A DNA stretch of 64,000 nt from assembly GCA_016934335.1 (NCBI GenBank), contig JAFGTC010000267.1:10-64009 (forward strand), written 5' to 3'. The notes below the pieces were generated by a model, which saw only the letters and a program-made list of their open reading frames with translations, searched no databases and was not told the origin of the DNA. This document shows, in pieces, positions 28,879-32,363 of the stretch. The DNA comes from Candidatus Omnitrophota bacterium. GTDB lineage: Bacteria; Hinthialibacterota; Hinthialibacteria; Hinthialibacterales; Hinthialibacteraceae. Numbering within the stretch: position 1 is the stretch's first letter; the number at the start of each line of letters is the position of its first letter. Position numbers and translations under genes: made by a program.

Positions 28879-29868
28879 CTACCAGGCATAGCCATTGGGA
28901 TGTTTTTGATGCCAGAGCCAGGCGGTTTCGACGATCTTATCGATGTCGGTAAAACGGGGCGTCCAACCTAACAATTCCTTCGCTTTCTTTGACGAAGCCA
29001 CCAGCCTGGGCGGATCGCCGGCGCGCCGCTCCGCCTCCACCGCGGGAATGGGATGTTTTGTGATTTTTCTCGCCGCTTCGATCACTTCGCGCACGGAATA
29101 GCCGTGCTCGCTGCCCAGGTTGCAGAAGAGGCTCTCATTTTTGCAATATTCCAAAGCTCGGATATGGGCGTCCGCCAGATCGCTGACGTGGATGTAATCG
29201 CGGATGCAGGAGCCGTCCGGCGTGTCGTAATCCGCGCCAAAAATGGAAATATGCTCCCGCTGTCCGAGAGCGACCTGTAGAACCAGCGGGATGAGATGGG
29301 TTTCGGGATTATGATCCTCGCCGTGCTCTGCGGTTGCGCCTGAAGCGTTGAAATAGCGAAGGATGGCGTGACGGATTCCGTATGAGATTTCATAGCTGCG
29401 CAGGAGCAGTTCGAATGCGAGTTTGGAGCATCCATAGGGATTAATAGGCTGCTGGGGGTGAGATTCGTCAATGGGAACTTCCTGAACGTCGCCGTAAGTG
29501 GCGCAGGTCGATGAAAAGACGATGCGCTTCACGTCATGATCGCGCATCGCGTTGAGAAGGTTGTAGCCGCCGATGAAATTATTGTGGAAATATCTCTCCG
29601 CCTGCGTCATGGATTCGCCGACATAGGCGTAAGCGCCGAAGTGCATTACCGCGTCGATAGTATGAGCATCGAACATCCCCCGCACGGCGTCTCCGTCGCG
29701 GATGTCGCATTCTTCGATGACGGCGTCAGGGTGGACCGCTTCTCGATGGCCGTATTCAAAATTGTCGGCGACAATCACCCGCTTTCCGGCGGCGACTAAA
29801 GCTTCGACATTGACGCTGCCGATGTAGCCGGCGCCTCCAATAACCAGTACTGTTTCATGATCGCTCAC
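28879..29868 (-). CDS. galE: UDP-glucose 4-epimerase (NAD-dependent epimerase/dehydratase)
   Basis: VLVIGGAGYIGS Rossmann motif and a YGCSK catalytic Tyr-x3-Lys motif; 329 aa. Confidence 0.8.
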   Translation of the reverse strand: MSDHETVLVIGGAGYIGSVNVEALVAAGKRVIVADNFEYGHREAVHPDAVIEECDIRDGDAVRGMFDAHTIDAVMHFGAYAYVGESMTQAERYFHNNFIGGYNLLNAMRDHDVKRIVFSSTCATYGDVQEVPIDESHPQQPINPYGCSKLAFELLLRSYEISYGIRHAILRYFNASGATAEHGEDHNPETHLIPLVLQVALGQREHISIFGADYDTPDGSCIRDYIHVSDLADAHIRALEYCKNESLFCNLGSEHGYSVREVIEAARKITKHPIPAVEAERRAGDPPRLVASSKKAKELLGWTPRFTDIDKIVETAWLWHQKHPNGYAW

Positions 29869-29892
29869 AATGATACTCCTAATCTTAATGGC

Positions 29893-31311
29893 CTATGTAA
29901 GTACGCTTTGCGTTTTTGTCCAACAAGCTCCATCGCTGCTTCCATGAAAAATCGTCAGTTCGCAGCCGGCGCCGGCGGCGTGCTCCTGTGCGATGTTTTG
30001 GACGCTCTGCAGTCCTTTTTCTCCGATGCACAAAAAGCAGACCGTGCCGCCTGAACCGCCGCCGGTGATTTTCGCGCCGTACACGCCGTGCGATGATCCC
30101 GCTTCATAGGCGCGTTTGACCAGGGCGTCGGTCGCTTCGCTTCCCAATCCGCAGCGGCTGTAGCTCCAGTGCGATTGATACATCAACTCGCCCAGTTGGA
30201 AATAAGCGTCTTCACGATTCGATTGGGCGGCATGGGGAGAATTGGCCAATTGGAGAAGAAGCGCGAATTCGATGACGCGATGGTTTTCATAAATGGGATG
30301 AGCCGTGCAGGCTTTCACTGCATAGCGCCGATCGGGCTGCGGCGAAGTGATGGGATCGATCGTATCCCCGAAGCGCGAGATGAATTCCTCGCCGCTCATG
30401 ACGCCGGGCAATATAGATTCGTAGCGGGATTCGTATTGCGACGGCGTGAGTTTGGATAGATAGCCTTCGAGGGGCAGGCCGTCTCGCCGGCATGTGCGTT
30501 TGGCTTCCAGAATAACTTGGGGATCGACGCCGCAGTTGTCGGCGATGATGCTGTACCCCATAAAAGCCGCCGTTCGCACGTCTCCATACGAGGCCCCGCC
30601 GACGGAATGCCGCTCGCCGCTGTCAACTCCAACAAAATGCATTTCTTTTGGAATGCCGACGGGGGGAGAAAGGATGTCCGGCCGGCACAAGATGGGCAGA
30701 AGTTGATCCTTGCGGCCGAAATAGGCGGCCAATTGATCCATCAAGCCGCACGGCGCTCCGACAATGTAATTCTCGACTTTCTGCCCCAGCGCCGGGAGTT
30801 CGTTTCCGGACAGTTCGACTTGAAGCGCATGCGACAACGCCGCCAATGTTGCGATTTCCAGCGCGGCGGAGGACGAAACCCCTTTGCCGATCGGAACATC
30901 CGAATCGACCCAGAAATCCGCGCCGTTAAATTCGACGCCTTTTTCTTGGATTAAGCCGAGAACGCAGCCCAGCACATAGGCGGCCCAGGATCGCTTTTTA
31001 TCCTCCGACAAGATTTTTTGGGAAAATCGGTAATCGCCGGTTTTCTCAGAAGGAATCAATTGATCCAAACGATATTGCGCCTCGCTCTCCAATCCGGCGC
31101 GCTCAGCTTCATGACTATAAACGCGCAATATCCCGTCGCGGCGCAACGATGCATAAACGTTCGTGCGGCCGGCGATGGGCATCTGCAGGACGAATGATCC
31201 GGAATAATCGGCGATGCCTCCCATTACATCCAGGCGCCCGGGCGCGGAGGCATGAACGACTTCCCGGTTTGTTCCAAAAAAATCGCATATGCGTGAATCG
31301 AGGTTCATCAA
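29893..31311 (-). CDS. GHMP-family anomeric sugar-1-kinase (galactokinase / L-arabinokinase-like)
   Basis: N-terminal [24 protein letters not shown] resembles the arabinokinase/galactokinase motif. GHMP ATP motif [15 protein letters not shown]. At 472 aa it is longer than canonical GalK. Confidence 0.65.
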   Translation of the reverse strand: [472 protein letters not shown]

Positions 31312-32363
31312 TCGGCTCCCTGATAGGATGTTAAATCGACTTGCTTAAGTTCCCGGGCTTTATCTTCGGGCATTGCATCCGCCATGAAATTGCCCCCGCC
31401 TATCTCTGGGCCGGCTAAAAACTTCTGCAAACCGGGGGAGCGCAAGGGAGGCTGCAGCAGCAGATGGAGATGATACTGGGAGTAATCCCCGCCGTCCACC
31501 GGCGCTTGGAAAAATGACATGACATAAGGAAACGGCATGCCGAAGAGAGAATCGTATCTGCGTATCACGGATTGGAAGACGGCTGCTAAATCGTAGAGTT
31601 CGGAATCGGACATCGAGGCAAGCGTCGCATGGCGCTTCTTGGGGAAGATCATCACCTCATAGGAATAGCGCGCAAAGAATGGAACGAAGGCGCAGGCGGA
31701 CTCGTTCTCGTCGATAACGCGCTCGCCGGATTTCAATTCGCAGCCGAGAATCTCATCGAATATGTTTTGGTTATGCTCTCGATGAAAATCCAATGCGGCA
31801 TCCAGTTCTTTTTCAATTAAGGAGAAGACGAAATTTACGGCGTAAATTTGACAATGGGGATGTGGATTGGAAACGCCAGTGATTTCGCCGCGATTCTCAA
31901 AAATGAGGACAAAACGAATCGAGGGATTTTTGATAAACTCGATCATTTGATCGCGCCAGGCCGTGAAAACATGGGCGACTTGATTGCATGAAATCTGCGC
32001 AAGCGTCACATTATGGCGGGGATCGTAGCAGACGACTCGCGCAATGCCGTCCGCGCGCTTTTTTTGGTAGAGCGCCGGGTGCGCATCCTGGATATTTGGA
32101 GGCACAGCGGGCGCTTCTGCGCCGACAACCGGGAAATCGTTATCGAAAATAAAAACGCCCCTGTAGTCTGGATTTCGGATGCCCCGGGCGCGCACGTTTC
32201 CCGGACATAGATAACAGGCGGGATCATAGGCGGGGCTCTCCTTCGACGGCGCGACGGACGCCCCGCTCCAAGGCCTCGCATCTCGATGCGCCGAGTAAAC
32301 CACCCACTCACGCCGAAGCGGATGCCAACGCTCCTCCCATTTTCCTTGAAATTTCTGGTTCAT
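31308..32363 (-). CDS. galT: Galactose-1-phosphate uridylyltransferase (HIT superfamily)
   Basis: HPHCQIYA (H-x-H-x-Q) active-site motif and a Cys-rich region CYLCPGN; ATGA overlap with the kinase gene. Confidence 0.7.
   Translation of the reverse strand: MNQKFQGKWEERWHPLRREWVVYSAHRDARPWSGASVAPSKESPAYDPACYLCPGNVRARGIRNPDYRGVFIFDNDFPVVGAEAPAVPPNIQDAHPALYQKKRADGIARVVCYDPRHNVTLAQISCNQVAHVFTAWRDQMIEFIKNPSIRFVLIFENRGEITGVSNPHPHCQIYAVNFVFSLIEKELDAALDFHREHNQNIFDEILGCELKSGERVIDENESACAFVPFFARYSYEVMIFPKKRHATLASMSDSELYDLAAVFQSVIRRYDSLFGMPFPYVMSFFQAPVDGGDYSQYHLHLLLQPPLRSPGLQKFLAGPEIGGGNFMADAMPEDKARELKQVDLTSYQGAD

What the first reader, a model, noticed from the sequence alone, without database searches (positions are those of the whole stretch)
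28879..32363. Leloir-type operon (galT, a long GHMP sugar-1-kinase, galE) embedded in an arabinofuranosidase locus
Immediately divergent from a GH127 beta-L-arabinofuranosidase and a GH51 alpha-L-arabinofuranosidase, the minus-strand operon encodes a uridylyltransferase (HPHCQ), a UDP-sugar 4-epimerase, and a 472-aa GHMP kinase. The kinase N-terminus ([17 protein letters not shown]) resembles L-arabinokinase-type anomeric kinases more than canonical GalK.

No araA, araB or araD is present. Two readings are possible. One is ordinary galactose salvage from arabinogalactan. The other is a non-canonical L-arabinose-1-phosphate to UDP-L-arabinose (to UDP-xylose) route for released arabinose.
Basis: inference. 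Interest (0 to 1): 0.5.

Follow-up and report, generated by a model that had tools for sequence, protein, structure and literature searches.

The report
Leloir-like L-arabinose operon with arabinokinase
This three-gene operon pairs a bacterial relative of the plant L-arabinose kinase (not a true galactokinase) with GalT and GalE, and comparison with about 160 related loci suggests a widespread route, absent from the literature I could search, that converts L-arabinose into D-xylose through UDP-sugars.

Summary
galT (31308-32363), a GHMP kinase (29893-31308) and galE (28879-29868) form one tightly coupled minus-strand operon. It lies divergent from secreted GH127, GH51-like and GH106-like hydrolases and a sodium:solute symporter.

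The kinase is not a GalK. It fails the curated GalK cut-off and replaces the Glu-His of the galactose signature with Gly-Ile. It groups with plant L-arabinokinase (ARA1) domains in 100/100 bootstraps, apart from canonical GalKs. Its closest solved structure is the acidobacterial "AbGHMP" (9ulx).

Across 163 related loci from at least 7 phyla, this kinase is linked to a distinct GalT subtype: 55/83 genome loci, and 31/34 informative metagenome loci. It also recurs with an IMPase-family phosphatase, xylB/xylA, galM, pentose-type transporters and GH51/GH127. It is never found with araA, araB or araD, and almost never with canonical galK.

Best explanation: a pentose version of the Leloir cycle. 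L-Ara is phosphorylated to L-Ara-1-P. GalT exchanges it with UDP-Xyl to give UDP-L-Ara and Xyl-1-P. GalE regenerates UDP-Xyl. Elsewhere, Xyl-1-P is dephosphorylated to xylose and passed to XylA/XylB.

In this window the phosphatase and xylAB are absent, so the end of the route in this organism is unresolved. No activity has been measured. I found no publication of such a pathway in the searchable library.

The parts
31308..32363 (-). galT-type UDP-sugar:sugar-1-phosphate uridylyltransferase (351 aa), first gene of the operon. It belongs to a distinct subtype with a remodelled sugar-binding loop (KFLAGPEIGGGNFMAD).
   Evidence: TIGR00209 scores 278 bits (cut-off 102) and both GalT Pfam domains match. 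The HPH motif, Gln172 and the Zn ligands Cys50/Cys53/His117/His168 are conserved. E. coli Tyr316 is Pro, Gln323 is Met and Val314 is Ala. These are three of the eight hexose-1-P contact residues listed for human GALT in PMC5081055.
29893..31308 (-). ARA1-type GHMP anomeric sugar kinase, predicted L-arabinose 1-kinase (471 aa from the ATG; the ORF listing gives 472 aa from the TTG at 31311).
   Evidence: Below the GalK cut-off (141 vs 226.65 bits). Best PDB match is 9ulx 'AbGHMP', E 3.7e-113, against about 1e-24 for GalKs. Groups with plant L-arabinokinase domains 100/100. EcGalK Glu34/His35 are Gly32/Ile33, while Arg26, Asp35, Tyr36, Asp192 and Tyr242 are conserved.
28879..29868 (-). galE-type UDP-sugar 4-epimerase (329 aa, GTG start), last gene of the operon. 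Proposed to interconvert UDP-L-Arap and UDP-Xyl.
   Evidence: TIGR01179 scores 388 bits (cut-off 262). The catalytic Thr/Tyr/Lys triad is intact and the E. coli gatekeeper Tyr299 is Leu. AGGAG lies 7 nt upstream of the GTG, with a 24-nt spacer after the kinase stop.
28850..28878 (-). Perfect 8-bp stem (GGTGGGCT / AGCCCACC) with a 13-nt loop, starting at the base after the galE stop codon. Possible 3'-end structure of the operon transcript.
   Evidence: Read directly from the sequence. No T-run follows it and the terminator scan did not call it, so its function is inferred only.
32364..32665 (.). 302-bp divergent intergenic region between galT and the GH127 gene. Presumed promoter/regulatory region for both transcription units.
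   Evidence: Sequence. No convincing sigma-70-type promoter was found. Inference from gene arrangement only.
32666..35098 (+). Secreted GH127 beta-L-arabinofuranosidase-family enzyme with a C-terminal F5/8 type C domain (810 aa).
   Evidence: Pfam GH127 catalytic, middle and C-terminal domains, E 4e-111. Signal-peptide-like N-terminus. GH127 also lies near the kinase/GalT pair in other loci (L021, L063, L078, L131, L156, L165).
35203..37629 (+). Secreted GH51-like alpha-L-arabinofuranosidase (808 aa).
   Evidence: Alpha-L-AF_C and ASD1 domains. NCBIfam ArfA 243 bits, below its cut-off. Signal peptide. GH51 genes flank the kinase in L001, L040, L050, L062, L069, L142 and L167.
37746..39509 (+). 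Sodium:solute symporter (587 aa), candidate importer of the released monosaccharide (L-arabinose).
   Evidence: Pfam SSF, E 5e-84. It is 47-70% identical to the SSF genes inside or beside the kinase/GalT operons of L081, L050, L040, L044 and L056. The same type occurs in L093, L095, L097 and L099.
39600..42803 (+). Secreted GH106-like alpha-L-rhamnosidase-family protein (1067 aa). Part of the same plus-strand hydrolase block.
   Evidence: PF17132, 70.9 bits. Hydrophobic N-terminal segment. Assignment to the locus rests on co-orientation only.

Best explanation
The operon encodes the core of a pentose version of the Leloir cycle for L-arabinose.

1. Secreted GH127 and GH51-like arabinofuranosidases release L-arabinose from plant-type glycans, and the sodium symporter imports it.
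2. The ARA1-type GHMP kinase phosphorylates beta-L-arabinopyranose at C1.
3. The GalT-subtype transferase exchanges L-Ara-1-P with UDP-xylose, giving UDP-L-arabinose and alpha-D-xylose-1-phosphate. UDP-glucose could prime the first turn.
4. GalE epimerises UDP-L-arabinose at C4 back to UDP-xylose.

The net reaction is L-arabinose + ATP -> xylose-1-phosphate.

In many other genomes the same kinase/GalT pair is joined to an inositol-monophosphatase-family phosphatase, xylose isomerase and xylulokinase. These would take xylose-1-P through xylose to xylulose-5-P, making the route an alternative to AraBAD.

What is shown: gene identities, operon structure, placement of the kinase with plant L-arabinokinase, the residue substitutions, and the conserved synteny. 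What is inferred: every substrate and the direction of flux. In this organism the steps after xylose-1-P / UDP-xylose are not visible in the window.
For: (1) The kinase is ARA1-type, not GalK.
- It scores below the GalK cut-off.
- The plant L-arabinokinase cluster (P0200/P0269, Lactuca sativa XP_023756665.1) matches at E 1.5e-83. blastp gives 40% identity and E 1e-95, against 26% and E 2e-31 for EcGalK.
- The ARA1-like clade is monophyletic in 100/100 bootstraps.
- The signature GRLDV[MI]GGIADY is shared with plant ARA1 and found in all 83 bacterial homologues. Catalytic Arg/Asp and the Asp/Tyr ring-hydroxyl ligands are conserved.

(2) Canonical GalK paralogues (GEH signature) co-exist within 10 kb in L079, L024 and L104, so the two kinases are not redundant.

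(3) Synteny.
- GalT is on the same strand next to the kinase in 55/83 genome loci from Bacteroidota, Acidobacteriota, Chloroflexota, Gemmatimonadota, Planctomycetota, FCPU426 and others.
- Reciprocally, 31 of 34 informative metagenome loci seeded on this GalT subtype carry the ARA1-like kinase, and only one carries a canonical GalK.

(4) Pathway partners.
- The IMPase-family phosphatase with intact DPIDGT metal motifs occurs in 25 genome loci (clustering gave 24) and 36 metagenome loci. It is fused N-terminally to the kinase in P0070 and P0089.
- E. coli XylB-like genes occur in 24 loci, XylA in 9, GalM in 12, and AraA/AraB/AraD in none of 163.
- Complete operons exist, such as 'SSF xylB GalT KIN xylA' (L044, L056, L097), 'xylA< xylB< galM> GalT IMP KIN' (L148), and 'xylB, CUT2 ABC transporter, GalT, IMP, KIN, galM, xylA' (L158).

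(5) In this GalT subtype, three of the eight hexose-1-P contact residues are replaced family-wide (contact list from PMC5081055).

(6) GalE homologues with UDP-Xyl 4-epimerase activity are documented in plants, as is the ARA1 reaction (PMC5897480).

(7) In the window, translational coupling (TGATG overlap, AGGAG before galE) and the divergent, secreted arabinofuranosidases plus an orthologous symporter tie the operon to released L-arabinose.
Against: - No enzyme activity is known for any bacterial member. PDB 9ulx/9uly is named only 'AbGHMP', and I found no paper on it.
- GalT and GalE pass the curated equivalog models for the ordinary Leloir enzymes.
- In L079 and L104 a canonical galK-galM sits in the same operon with a single GalT, so this GalT probably also handles Gal-1-P.
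- The window itself contains no IMPase-like gene, xylA, xylB or galM. Only 64 kb of the genome is visible, so the catabolic ending cannot be demonstrated for this organism.
- GalE is rarely linked elsewhere (7 of 163 loci).
- Some kinase homologues stand alone among housekeeping genes (for example Rhodocytophaga). Others lie next to a phosphatase with no GalT nearby (L004 and the Asgard locus L170).
- The proposed route costs 2 ATP per pentose, against 1 for AraBAD.
- Which sugar hydroxyl the replaced kinase and GalT residues contact rests on my recollection of crystal structures, not on a tool result.
Confidence: 0.6

Rival explanations
1. Nucleotide-sugar salvage only. The operon activates imported L-arabinose to UDP-L-arabinose (using UDP-glucose as the uridylyl donor) and to UDP-xylose via GalE, to supply glycosyltransferases that build surface glycans. 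Carbon is not fed into central metabolism in this organism.
For: The same enzyme assignments as the best explanation hold. The window has no phosphatase partner and no xylAB. Here GalE, not the phosphatase, is the third operon gene. The plant ARA1 pathway is a salvage route (PMC5897480). Glycosyltransferases and a nucleotide-sugar dehydrogenase occur elsewhere in the window.
Against: The operon lies beside secreted arabinofuranosidases and a symporter, the typical layout of a catabolic utilisation locus. Across relatives the pair travels with xylA, xylB, galM, transporters and a phosphatase, not with glycosyltransferases. The closest GalT relatives (L005, L088, L090) do have the phosphatase adjacent. 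The glycosyltransferase genes in the window are more than 15 kb away.
Confidence: 0.2
2. An ordinary Leloir pathway for D-galactose released from arabinogalactan. The kinase is merely a divergent galactokinase lineage used by these phyla.
For: GalT and GalE exceed the curated equivalog cut-offs. The kinase carries the Pfam galactokinase signature domain, 27 bits, and some databases call homologues 'galactokinase'. GalM co-occurs in 12 loci. A weak GH53-like (galactanase family) ORF lies at 17226-18350. In many Cytophagales the GalT-kinase pair sits among housekeeping genes.
Against: The kinase fails the GalK cut-off and lacks the Glu-His of the signature in all 83 members. It groups with L-arabinokinase 100/100. 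Canonical GalK paralogues co-exist in the same loci. Linkage to xylA/xylB, an IMPase-like phosphatase and GH51/GH127 has no role in galactose catabolism, because Glc-1-P needs no phosphatase or xylose enzymes. No beta-galactosidase family appears among the 25 commonest neighbour families.
Confidence: 0.12
3. The kinase acts on a different galacto-configured sugar lacking a C6 hydroxyl, or one released by the neighbouring hydrolases (for example D-fucose, D-galacturonate, or a rhamnogalacturonan-II sugar). The UDP-sugar chemistry would serve that substrate instead.
For: The GH127 gene's best NCBIfam hit is 'aceric acid hydrolase' (461 bits, far below its 950 cut-off), and a GH106-like rhamnosidase is adjacent. 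The replaced Glu-His shows only that the C6 region of the pocket differs.
Against: The only biochemically characterised relatives are plant L-arabinokinases (PMC5897480). Only L-arabinose is the C4 epimer of D-xylose, which is what explains the xylA/xylB linkage. GH51 and GH127 both release L-arabinofuranose.
Confidence: 0.05

Closest known systems
Plant L-arabinokinase ARA1 (EC 2.7.1.46; Arabidopsis ARA1, rice CAP1; KEGG K12446)
   Same: Same GHMP-kinase clade. The window kinase is 40% identical to the kinase domain of Lactuca L-arabinokinase. They share the signature APGRLDV[MI]GGIADYSGS, with Gly-Ile in place of GalK's Glu-His, and are monophyletic in 100/100 bootstraps. JGI labels many bacterial members 'L-arabinokinase'.
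   Different: The bacterial protein is a stand-alone 471-aa kinase without the roughly 480-aa glycosyltransferase-like N-terminal domain of ARA1. In plants the product is converted by UDP-sugar pyrophosphorylase in a salvage route (PMC5897480). Here the partner is a GalT-type transferase, plus a phosphatase and xylAB in relatives.
Classical Leloir pathway (GalK-GalT-GalE, with GalM), as in E. coli galETKM
   Same: Same three enzyme families in one operon. The GalT catalytic core (HPH motif, Zn site) and the GalE catalytic triad are conserved. The logic is the same: anomeric kinase, uridylyl exchange, C4 epimerisation.
   Different: The kinase is not a GalK: it fails the curated cut-off and has a different sugar signature. 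The GalT sugar loop is remodelled, with Tyr316 to Pro, Gln323 to a hydrophobic residue and Val314 to Ala. The predicted substrate is a pentose, so the product Xyl-1-P cannot enter glycolysis through phosphoglucomutase. In relatives it is handled by a phosphatase plus XylA/XylB.
PDB 9ulx/9uly 'AbGHMP'
   Same: Same family. It matches the window kinase at E 3.7e-113 over residues 12-463 and has the same [12 protein letters not shown] signature. It is 74% and 69% identical to the Blastocatellia members L077 and L062.
   Different: It comes from a different phylum, apparently Acidobacteriota. The depositors' name gives no function, and I found no publication in the searchable library.
Bifidobacterial GNB/LNB pathway (NahK, GalT-type LnpC, GalE-type LnpD). 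Cited from my own knowledge, not tested here.
   Same: A precedent for a Leloir-type cycle re-tooled for another sugar: an anomeric kinase plus dedicated GalT and GalE paralogues, encoded beside the glycan-degrading genes.
   Different: NahK is not a GHMP kinase and the substrates are N-acetylhexosamines. There is no phosphatase/isomerase ending.
Bacterial L-arabinose catabolism by AraA/AraB/AraD
   Same: The same physiological job is predicted: released L-arabinose to xylulose-5-phosphate. The genes are likewise encoded beside arabinofuranosidases and a transporter.
   Different: No homology and different intermediates. araA, araB and araD are absent from the window and from all 163 related loci. 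The proposed route would cost two ATP rather than one.

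Membership tests
ARA1-type L-arabinokinase clade of GHMP kinases | GHMP kinase fold with the phosphate-binding motif (PxGxGxSSSA) and the C-terminal GGGxGG motif | tested here: met
   Pfam GHMP_kinases_N (E 6e-19) and GHMP_kinases_C. The sequence contains [13 protein letters not shown] and ITGGGSGGT.
ARA1-type L-arabinokinase clade of GHMP kinases | Closer to characterised plant L-arabinokinase than to galactokinases; monophyletic with it | tested here: met
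   Plant cluster P0200/P0269 matches at E 1.5e-83. blastp gives 40% identity against 24-26% to GalKs. NJ bootstrap 100/100.
ARA1-type L-arabinokinase clade of GHMP kinases | Sugar-binding signature GRLDVxGGIADY (Gly-Ile where GalK has Glu-His) | tested here: met
   Window [12 protein letters not shown], Lactuca ARA1 [12 protein letters not shown]. Invariant Gly, and Ile/Val/Phe, in 83/83 homologues.
ARA1-type L-arabinokinase clade of GHMP kinases | N-terminal glycosyltransferase-like domain of about 480 aa, as in plant ARA1 | tested here: not met
   The window protein is 471 aa and aligns only to residues ~490-980 of the plant proteins. This is a feature of the eukaryotic architecture, not of the kinase domain.
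ARA1-type L-arabinokinase clade of GHMP kinases | ATP-dependent phosphorylation of L-arabinose at C1 | not testable with these tools
   Needs an enzyme assay. No activity data were found for any bacterial member.
Canonical galactokinase GalK (TIGR00131) | Score above the curated equivalog cut-off | tested here: not met
   141 bits against a cut-off of 226.65. All five NCBIfam galactokinase models score below their cut-offs.
Canonical galactokinase GalK (TIGR00131) | Galactose-binding signature GRxNLIGEHxDY | tested here: not met
   Asn to Asp, Glu to Gly and His to Ile. The canonical GalK paralogues in L079 and L024 keep GEH.
Canonical galactokinase GalK (TIGR00131) | Catalytic Arg and Asp (E. 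coli Arg28, Asp174) | tested here: met
   Arg26 and Asp192 are conserved in 83/83. These are shared by both kinase clades, so they do not discriminate.
Class I galactose-1-phosphate uridylyltransferase GalT (TIGR00209) | Score above the curated cut-off, with both GalT domains | tested here: met
   278 bits against 102. PF01087 and PF02744 both match. The enterobacterial-type model NF008724 is below its cut-off (318 vs 448).
Class I galactose-1-phosphate uridylyltransferase GalT (TIGR00209) | His-Pro-His nucleophile motif, Gln168, and Zn ligands Cys52/Cys55/His115/His164 (E. coli numbering) | tested here: met
   All are conserved in 53/53 linked GalTs, including the window protein.
Class I galactose-1-phosphate uridylyltransferase GalT (TIGR00209) | Hexose-1-P contact set: Lys311, Phe312, Val314, Tyr316, Glu317, Gln323, Asn153, Gln168 (E. 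coli equivalents of the human GALT list) | tested here: inconclusive
   Five of eight are kept. Tyr316 is Pro (53/53), Gln323 is Met/Leu/Ile/Val, and Val314 is Ala (52/53), with a one-residue insertion. The contact list is from PMC5081055. The effect on specificity is unknown.
UDP-glucose 4-epimerase GalE (TIGR01179) | Score above the cut-off and a Ser/Thr-Tyr-Lys catalytic triad | tested here: met
   388 bits against 262. Thr, Tyr and Lys are aligned with E. coli Ser124, Tyr149 and Lys153.
UDP-glucose 4-epimerase GalE (TIGR01179) | Activity on UDP-Xyl / UDP-L-Ara (UXE activity) | not testable with these tools
   Documented for some plant GalE homologues (PMC5897480). Here only the gatekeeper Tyr299 to Leu change is seen.
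Proposed pentose Leloir-like L-arabinose route (kinase, GalT, GalE, Xyl-1-P phosphatase, XylA, XylB) | ARA1-type kinase adjacent to the GalT subtype | tested here: met
   The genes overlap by one base in the window. The pairing is seen in 55/83 genome loci and 31/34 informative metagenome loci.
Proposed pentose Leloir-like L-arabinose route (kinase, GalT, GalE, Xyl-1-P phosphatase, XylA, XylB) | IMPase-family phosphatase partner in the locus | tested here: not met
   Absent from the 64-kb window by tblastn. Present in 25 genome loci (clustering gave 24) and 36 metagenome loci, and next to the closest GalT relatives L005, L088 and L090.
Proposed pentose Leloir-like L-arabinose route (kinase, GalT, GalE, Xyl-1-P phosphatase, XylA, XylB) | Xylose isomerase and xylulokinase available | tested here: not met
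   Not in the window. The rest of the genome could not be reached.

The most novel reading that the evidence does not exclude
The operon belongs to a widespread prokaryotic pathway for L-arabinose catabolism that I did not find described in the literature available to me. I would call it a 'pentose Leloir' route: L-Ara -> beta-L-Ara-1-P -> UDP-L-Ara <-> UDP-Xyl, releasing alpha-D-Xyl-1-P, which a dedicated IMPase-family phosphatase converts to D-xylose for XylA/XylB. It is present in at least seven bacterial phyla. Kinase homologues also occur in Asgard archaea, and the kinase domain of plant ARA1 nests among the bacterial members.
Probability: 0.5. Interest if true: 0.8.

Novelty: new variant of a known kind. 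Interest (0 to 1): 0.7.

Why it matters
[quoted passage not shown] From my own knowledge, the textbook prokaryotic routes are the AraBAD isomerase pathway and the oxidative (non-phosphorylative) pathways.

A UDP-sugar-based route that epimerises L-arabinose to D-xylose would add another solution. It would explain how many Bacteroidota, Acidobacteriota, Chloroflexota and candidate-phylum bacteria can encode arabinofuranosidases without araBAD beside them. It would also correct the widespread annotation of these kinases as 'galactokinase', and so improve carbon-use predictions from soil and sediment metagenomes.

It would supply a natural enzyme set (arabinokinase, a pentose-accepting GalT, a Xyl-1-P phosphatase) useful for making UDP-pentoses and for engineering arabinose use through an existing xylose pathway.

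It also bears on the origin of the plant arabinose salvage kinase.

Tried and rejected
- **Literature.** None returned a bacterial Leloir-like arabinose pathway or a paper on 9ulx. The library lacks most subscription journals, so this is not proof of novelty.
- **GalK/GalAK structure-function papers.** I could not retrieve papers documenting which hydroxyl the Glu-His pair contacts. That point rests on my memory.
- **Extending beyond the window.** Exact-protein look-ups to search the rest of the contig for the phosphatase and xylAB failed. Only short Logan contigs or nothing came back.
- **Structure prediction of the IMPase-like partner.** A single-sequence PDB search found nothing. A profile search gave only weak IMPase-fold hits.
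- **Amidohydro_3 as a phosphatase substitute.** I considered that the Amidohydro_3 gene recurrent in Chitinophagaceae operons might replace the phosphatase, since it never co-occurs with it. I rejected this because it carries a lipoprotein signal peptide.
- **The gene downstream in relative L001 as GalE.** It is not.
- **Promoter and terminator scans.** Nothing above the shuffled expectation.
- **Second GHMP kinase in the window (15024-15938) as a possible GalK.** It is homoserine kinase ThrB.

Full report
**1. What is in the sequence**

- galT, 31308-32363, is 351 aa and has HPHCQ at residues 168-172. It matches both Pfam GalT domains and scores 278 bits on TIGR00209 against a cut-off of 102.
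- The GHMP kinase matches Pfam GalKase_gal_bdg, GHMP_kinases_N and GHMP_kinases_C.
- galE, 28879-29868, is 329 aa and scores 388 bits on TIGR01179 against a cut-off of 262.

The junctions indicate one transcription unit with translational coupling. The galT stop TGA (31310-31308) overlaps an ATG at 31308 (TGATG), preceded by GGGAG. This ATG, not the TTG listed by the ORF listing, is the start of the identical database protein P0001, which is 471 aa. The kinase stop is followed by 24 nt containing AGGAG, then the galE GTG. A perfect 8-bp hairpin (28850-28878) starts at the base after the galE stop.

P0001 is annotated by NCBI as 'GHMP kinase [Candidatus Omnitrophica bacterium]', so the window is from an Omnitrophota MAG.

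**2. Surroundings**

Upstream and divergent, across 302 bp, lie four plus-strand genes:
- a GH127 beta-L-arabinofuranosidase-family gene (32666-35098);
- a GH51-like alpha-L-arabinofuranosidase (35203-37629);
- a sodium:solute symporter (37746-39509);
- a GH106-like protein (39600-42803).

The three hydrolases have signal-peptide-like N-termini, so they probably act outside the cytoplasm and release free sugar. A second SSF transporter (27096-28673) is convergent with galE.

The window has no AraA, AraB, AraD, XylA, XylB or GalM homologue by tblastn with the E. coli proteins. The only other GHMP kinase is homoserine kinase. The rest of the window encodes unrelated functions.

**3. The kinase is an ARA1-type arabinokinase homologue, not a GalK**

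- It scores 141 bits on TIGR00131, against a cut-off of 226.65, and falls below the cut-off of every NCBIfam galactokinase model.
- Against solved structures, the best match is 9ulx/9uly 'AbGHMP' at E 3.7e-113. Galactokinases reach only about 1e-24. AbGHMP is 74% and 69% identical to Blastocatellia members of the family, so it is probably an acidobacterial orthologue.
- An exhaustive search of 1.84 billion representatives found 599 proteins at E<=1e-30. Among the top hits are 860-1070-aa proteins that align only in their C-terminal half. One of these clusters contains annotated plant L-arabinokinases, for example Lactuca sativa XP_023756665.1.
- The plant sequence reads [24 protein letters not shown], essentially the window's [24 protein letters not shown].
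- blastp gives 40% identity (E 1e-95) to the plant kinase domain. It gives 24-26% identity (E 1e-25 to 1e-31) to E. coli GalK and to two canonical GalKs found in related loci.
- In a neighbour-joining tree, all ARA1-like sequences (bacterial, Asgard, algal, plant) are monophyletic against the GalKs in 100/100 bootstraps.

Position by position, the family keeps E. coli GalK Arg28, Asp37, Tyr38, Asp174 and Tyr223. It replaces Glu34-His35 with Gly and Ile/Val/Phe in 83 of 83 members. From my knowledge of the GalK crystal structures, the Glu-His pair lies at the C5-C6 end of bound galactose. Loss of both polar side chains would fit a sugar without a hydroxymethyl group. I could not document this with a tool or a retrievable paper.

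**4. Comparative genomics**

I first collected 83 genome loci containing kinase homologues of 41-55% identity. They come from Cytophagales, Chitinophagaceae, Saprospiraceae, Blastocatellia, Ktedonobacteria, Chloroflexia, Gemmatimonadota, Planctomycetota, FCPU426, Abditibacteriales and unclassified MAGs. Clustering all neighbours within 6 kb gave these recurrent partners:

| Partner | Loci (of 83) | Note |
|---|---|---|
| GalT | 55 | always same strand, median gap 17 nt |
| Inositol-monophosphatase-family protein (~345 aa) | 24-25 | 24 by clustering, 25 by BLAST labelling; median gap 44 nt |
| SSF transporter of the window's type | 11 | |
| XylB-like xylulokinase | 10 | |
| Xylose isomerase | 5 | 688 bits on TIGR02630, above cut-off |
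| GH51 | 5 | |
| GalM | 5 | |
| GalE | 5 | |

Typical gene orders:
- 'SSF xylB GalT KIN xylA SSF' in Chitinophagaceae;
- 'GalT IMP KIN' in many phyla;
- 'GalE GalT IMP KIN' in Dictyobacter aurantiacus;
- 'GH51 GalT KIN' in the closest long-contig relative, whose GalT is 70% identical.

The phosphatase-like partner keeps the metal-binding motifs of its superfamily (EG, DPIDGT, YDxC..EAG). It is fused N-terminally to the kinase in P0070 and P0089.

I then ran the reciprocal test, seeding on the GalT subtype in metagenome contigs, which gave 80 independent loci:
- of 34 loci with at least 3 kb downstream of GalT, 31 carry the ARA1-like kinase;
- only one locus carries a canonical GalK;
- 36 have the phosphatase and 15 have xylA and/or xylB.

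Full operons appear, such as 'xylA< xylB< galM> GalT IMP KIN' (L148) and 'xylB, sugar ABC transporter (SBP, double ATPase, permease), GalT, IMP, KIN, galM, xylA' (L158, L152, L121).

Over all 163 loci, E. coli-like XylB occurs in 24, XylA in 9 and GalM in 12. AraA, AraB and AraD occur in none. No beta-galactosidase family is among the 25 commonest Pfam families of the remaining neighbours. Canonical GalK paralogues with the GEH signature lie within 10 kb of the ARA1-like kinase in L079, L024 and L104, so the two kinases are not redundant.

**5. The GalT subtype and GalE**

The linked GalTs keep the HPH nucleophile motif, Gln168 and the Zn ligands. Their C-terminal sugar loop differs from E. 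coli and human GalT in every member. KFMVGYEMLAET-QRD becomes K[YF]LAGPE[IT]G[AG][GD][NT]F[ML][AS]D. That is Tyr316 to Pro (53/53), Val314 to Ala (52/53) and Gln323 to a hydrophobic residue.

These are three of the eight residues that form the glucose-1-phosphate site of human GALT, according to PMC5081055. Their effect on specificity is unknown.

In L079 and L104 a canonical galK-galM precedes xylB-GalT-KIN-xylA, and there is only one GalT. So this subtype may accept both hexose- and pentose-1-phosphates.

GalE has an intact catalytic triad. It has Leu at the position of the E. coli gatekeeper Tyr299, and the other four linked GalEs have Leu, Val or Ile there. GalE homologues with UDP-xylose 4-epimerase activity are known in plants (PMC5897480).

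**6. Most likely mechanism**

L-arabinose is the C4 epimer of D-xylose, just as galactose is the C4 epimer of glucose. The enzyme set therefore fits a pentose Leloir cycle:

1. The kinase makes beta-L-Ara-1-P.
2. GalT exchanges it with UDP-Xyl, giving UDP-L-Ara and alpha-D-Xyl-1-P.
3. GalE regenerates UDP-Xyl.

Unlike Glc-1-P, Xyl-1-P has no mutase route that I know of into central metabolism. This explains the otherwise puzzling phosphatase partner, and why a kinase-phosphatase fusion need not be a futile cycle: the phosphatase substrate would be the exchanged product, not the kinase product. It also explains the linkage to xylose isomerase and xylulokinase, the mutarotase, pentose-type transporters and arabinofuranosidases.

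Shown: gene identities, operon coupling, phylogeny, residue patterns and synteny. Inferred: all substrates and the direction of flux.

For this particular genome, the window contains the cycle itself (kinase, GalT, GalE), the sugar-releasing enzymes and an importer. It does not contain the phosphatase or xylAB, and I could not reach the rest of the genome. Whether the route here ends in catabolism or in supply of UDP-pentoses for glycans therefore remains open. I give the cycle 0.6, a salvage-only reading 0.2, ordinary galactose metabolism 0.12, and another substrate 0.05.

**7. Comparison with what is known, and novelty**

The kinase is a member of the ARA1 L-arabinokinase clade but lacks the plant N-terminal domain. 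GalT and GalE are members of their families by the curated models. As a system, the operon works like the Leloir pathway but fails membership at the kinase, and it differs in the GalT sugar loop.

I found no description of a bacterial L-arabinose route of this kind in ten full-text searches. The only sign of prior work is the unexplained PDB entry AbGHMP. The library omits most subscription journals, so prior publication cannot be excluded.

I rate it a new variant of a known kind, with interest 0.7. A specialist in pentose metabolism would find a UDP-sugar-based arabinose-to-xylose route surprising, and it is directly testable with a handful of enzyme assays.

Noticed in passing
P0269, P0290, P0244, P0208 versus bacterial family members (tree): The kinase domains of plant and algal ARA1-type proteins nest among the bacterial members, nearest the Chloroflexota, Gemmatimonadota and Blastocatellia sequences, rather than forming a sister group. 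This hints that the eukaryotic arabinokinase domain was acquired from bacteria. Eukaryote monophyly had only 25/100 bootstrap support in a simple NJ tree.
   Followed up: partly
L170:6361-9386 (Sigynarchaeota, Asgard archaea; homologue P0043, 50% identical): The archaeal kinase homologue sits divergently next to a 528-aa HAD/Cof-type Hydrolase_3 sugar phosphatase, with no GalT within 8 kb. This is a second, non-orthologous kinase-phosphatase association.
   Followed up: partly
L034, L046, L051, L054, L060, L073, L079, L083, L093, L094, L104, L113 (e.g. L083:3092-4978): A ~575-630-aa Amidohydro_3 protein with a lipoprotein-type signal peptide recurs immediately downstream of the kinase in Chitinophagaceae-type 'xylB GalT KIN xylA' operons. 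It never co-occurs with the IMPase-like gene. Its role is unexplained.
   Followed up: partly
L131:2-4630 and L165:2715-7957: A GH127 gene followed by a 915-932-aa protein lies directly upstream of GalT-IMP-KIN (L131) or GalT (L165). The L131 protein is DUF5695 (PF18951, 1304 bits). DUF5695 may be another arabinoside-related hydrolase partner.
   Followed up: no
window 10597-11475 (+): An ARMT1-like damage-control phosphatase (PF01937, E 3e-66) is encoded about 19 kb from the operon. No synteny evidence links it to the kinase. It is the only candidate sugar-phosphate phosphatase I saw in the window.
   Followed up: no
window 24001-26000: A low-GC island (GC 0.39 against about 0.52 in the flanks) holds a secreted 256-aa protein with no family (24050-24820) and a LuxR-type response regulator (25350-26015). 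An adjacent 262-aa protein with no family lies at 26047-26835. It could be horizontally acquired or regulatory for the neighbouring sugar locus.
   Followed up: no
window 20127-22199 (-) and 18396-20111 (-): A 690-aa fusion of a xylose-isomerase-like TIM barrel (AP_endonuc_2) with a Cgl0159-like domain lies next to a 571-aa class I/II aminotransferase that has a ~200-aa N-terminal extension. An AP_endonuc_2 gene next to an aminotransferase also occurs downstream of the kinase in relative L001 (15275-17467).
   Followed up: no
window 17226-18350 (-): A lipoprotein-like 374-aa ORF has a weak GH53 (galactanase family) match of 26.9 bits, barely above the cut-off. If real, it would indicate some galactan degradation capacity near the locus.
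   Followed up: no
window 57932-62684 (+): Three consecutive T2SSE/PilB-type secretion ATPases (571, 356 and 617 aa), two of them with MshEN domains.
   Followed up: no
window 63110-63940 (-): A 276-aa ORF matches the hydrazine synthase alpha-subunit middle domain (PF18582, E 4e-25), an unexpected domain outside anammox bacteria.
   Followed up: no
window 1929-3965 (-): A C-5 cytosine DNA methylase (2808-3965) is followed by a 292-aa ORF with no family (1929-2807). This may be a restriction-modification pair.
   Followed up: no
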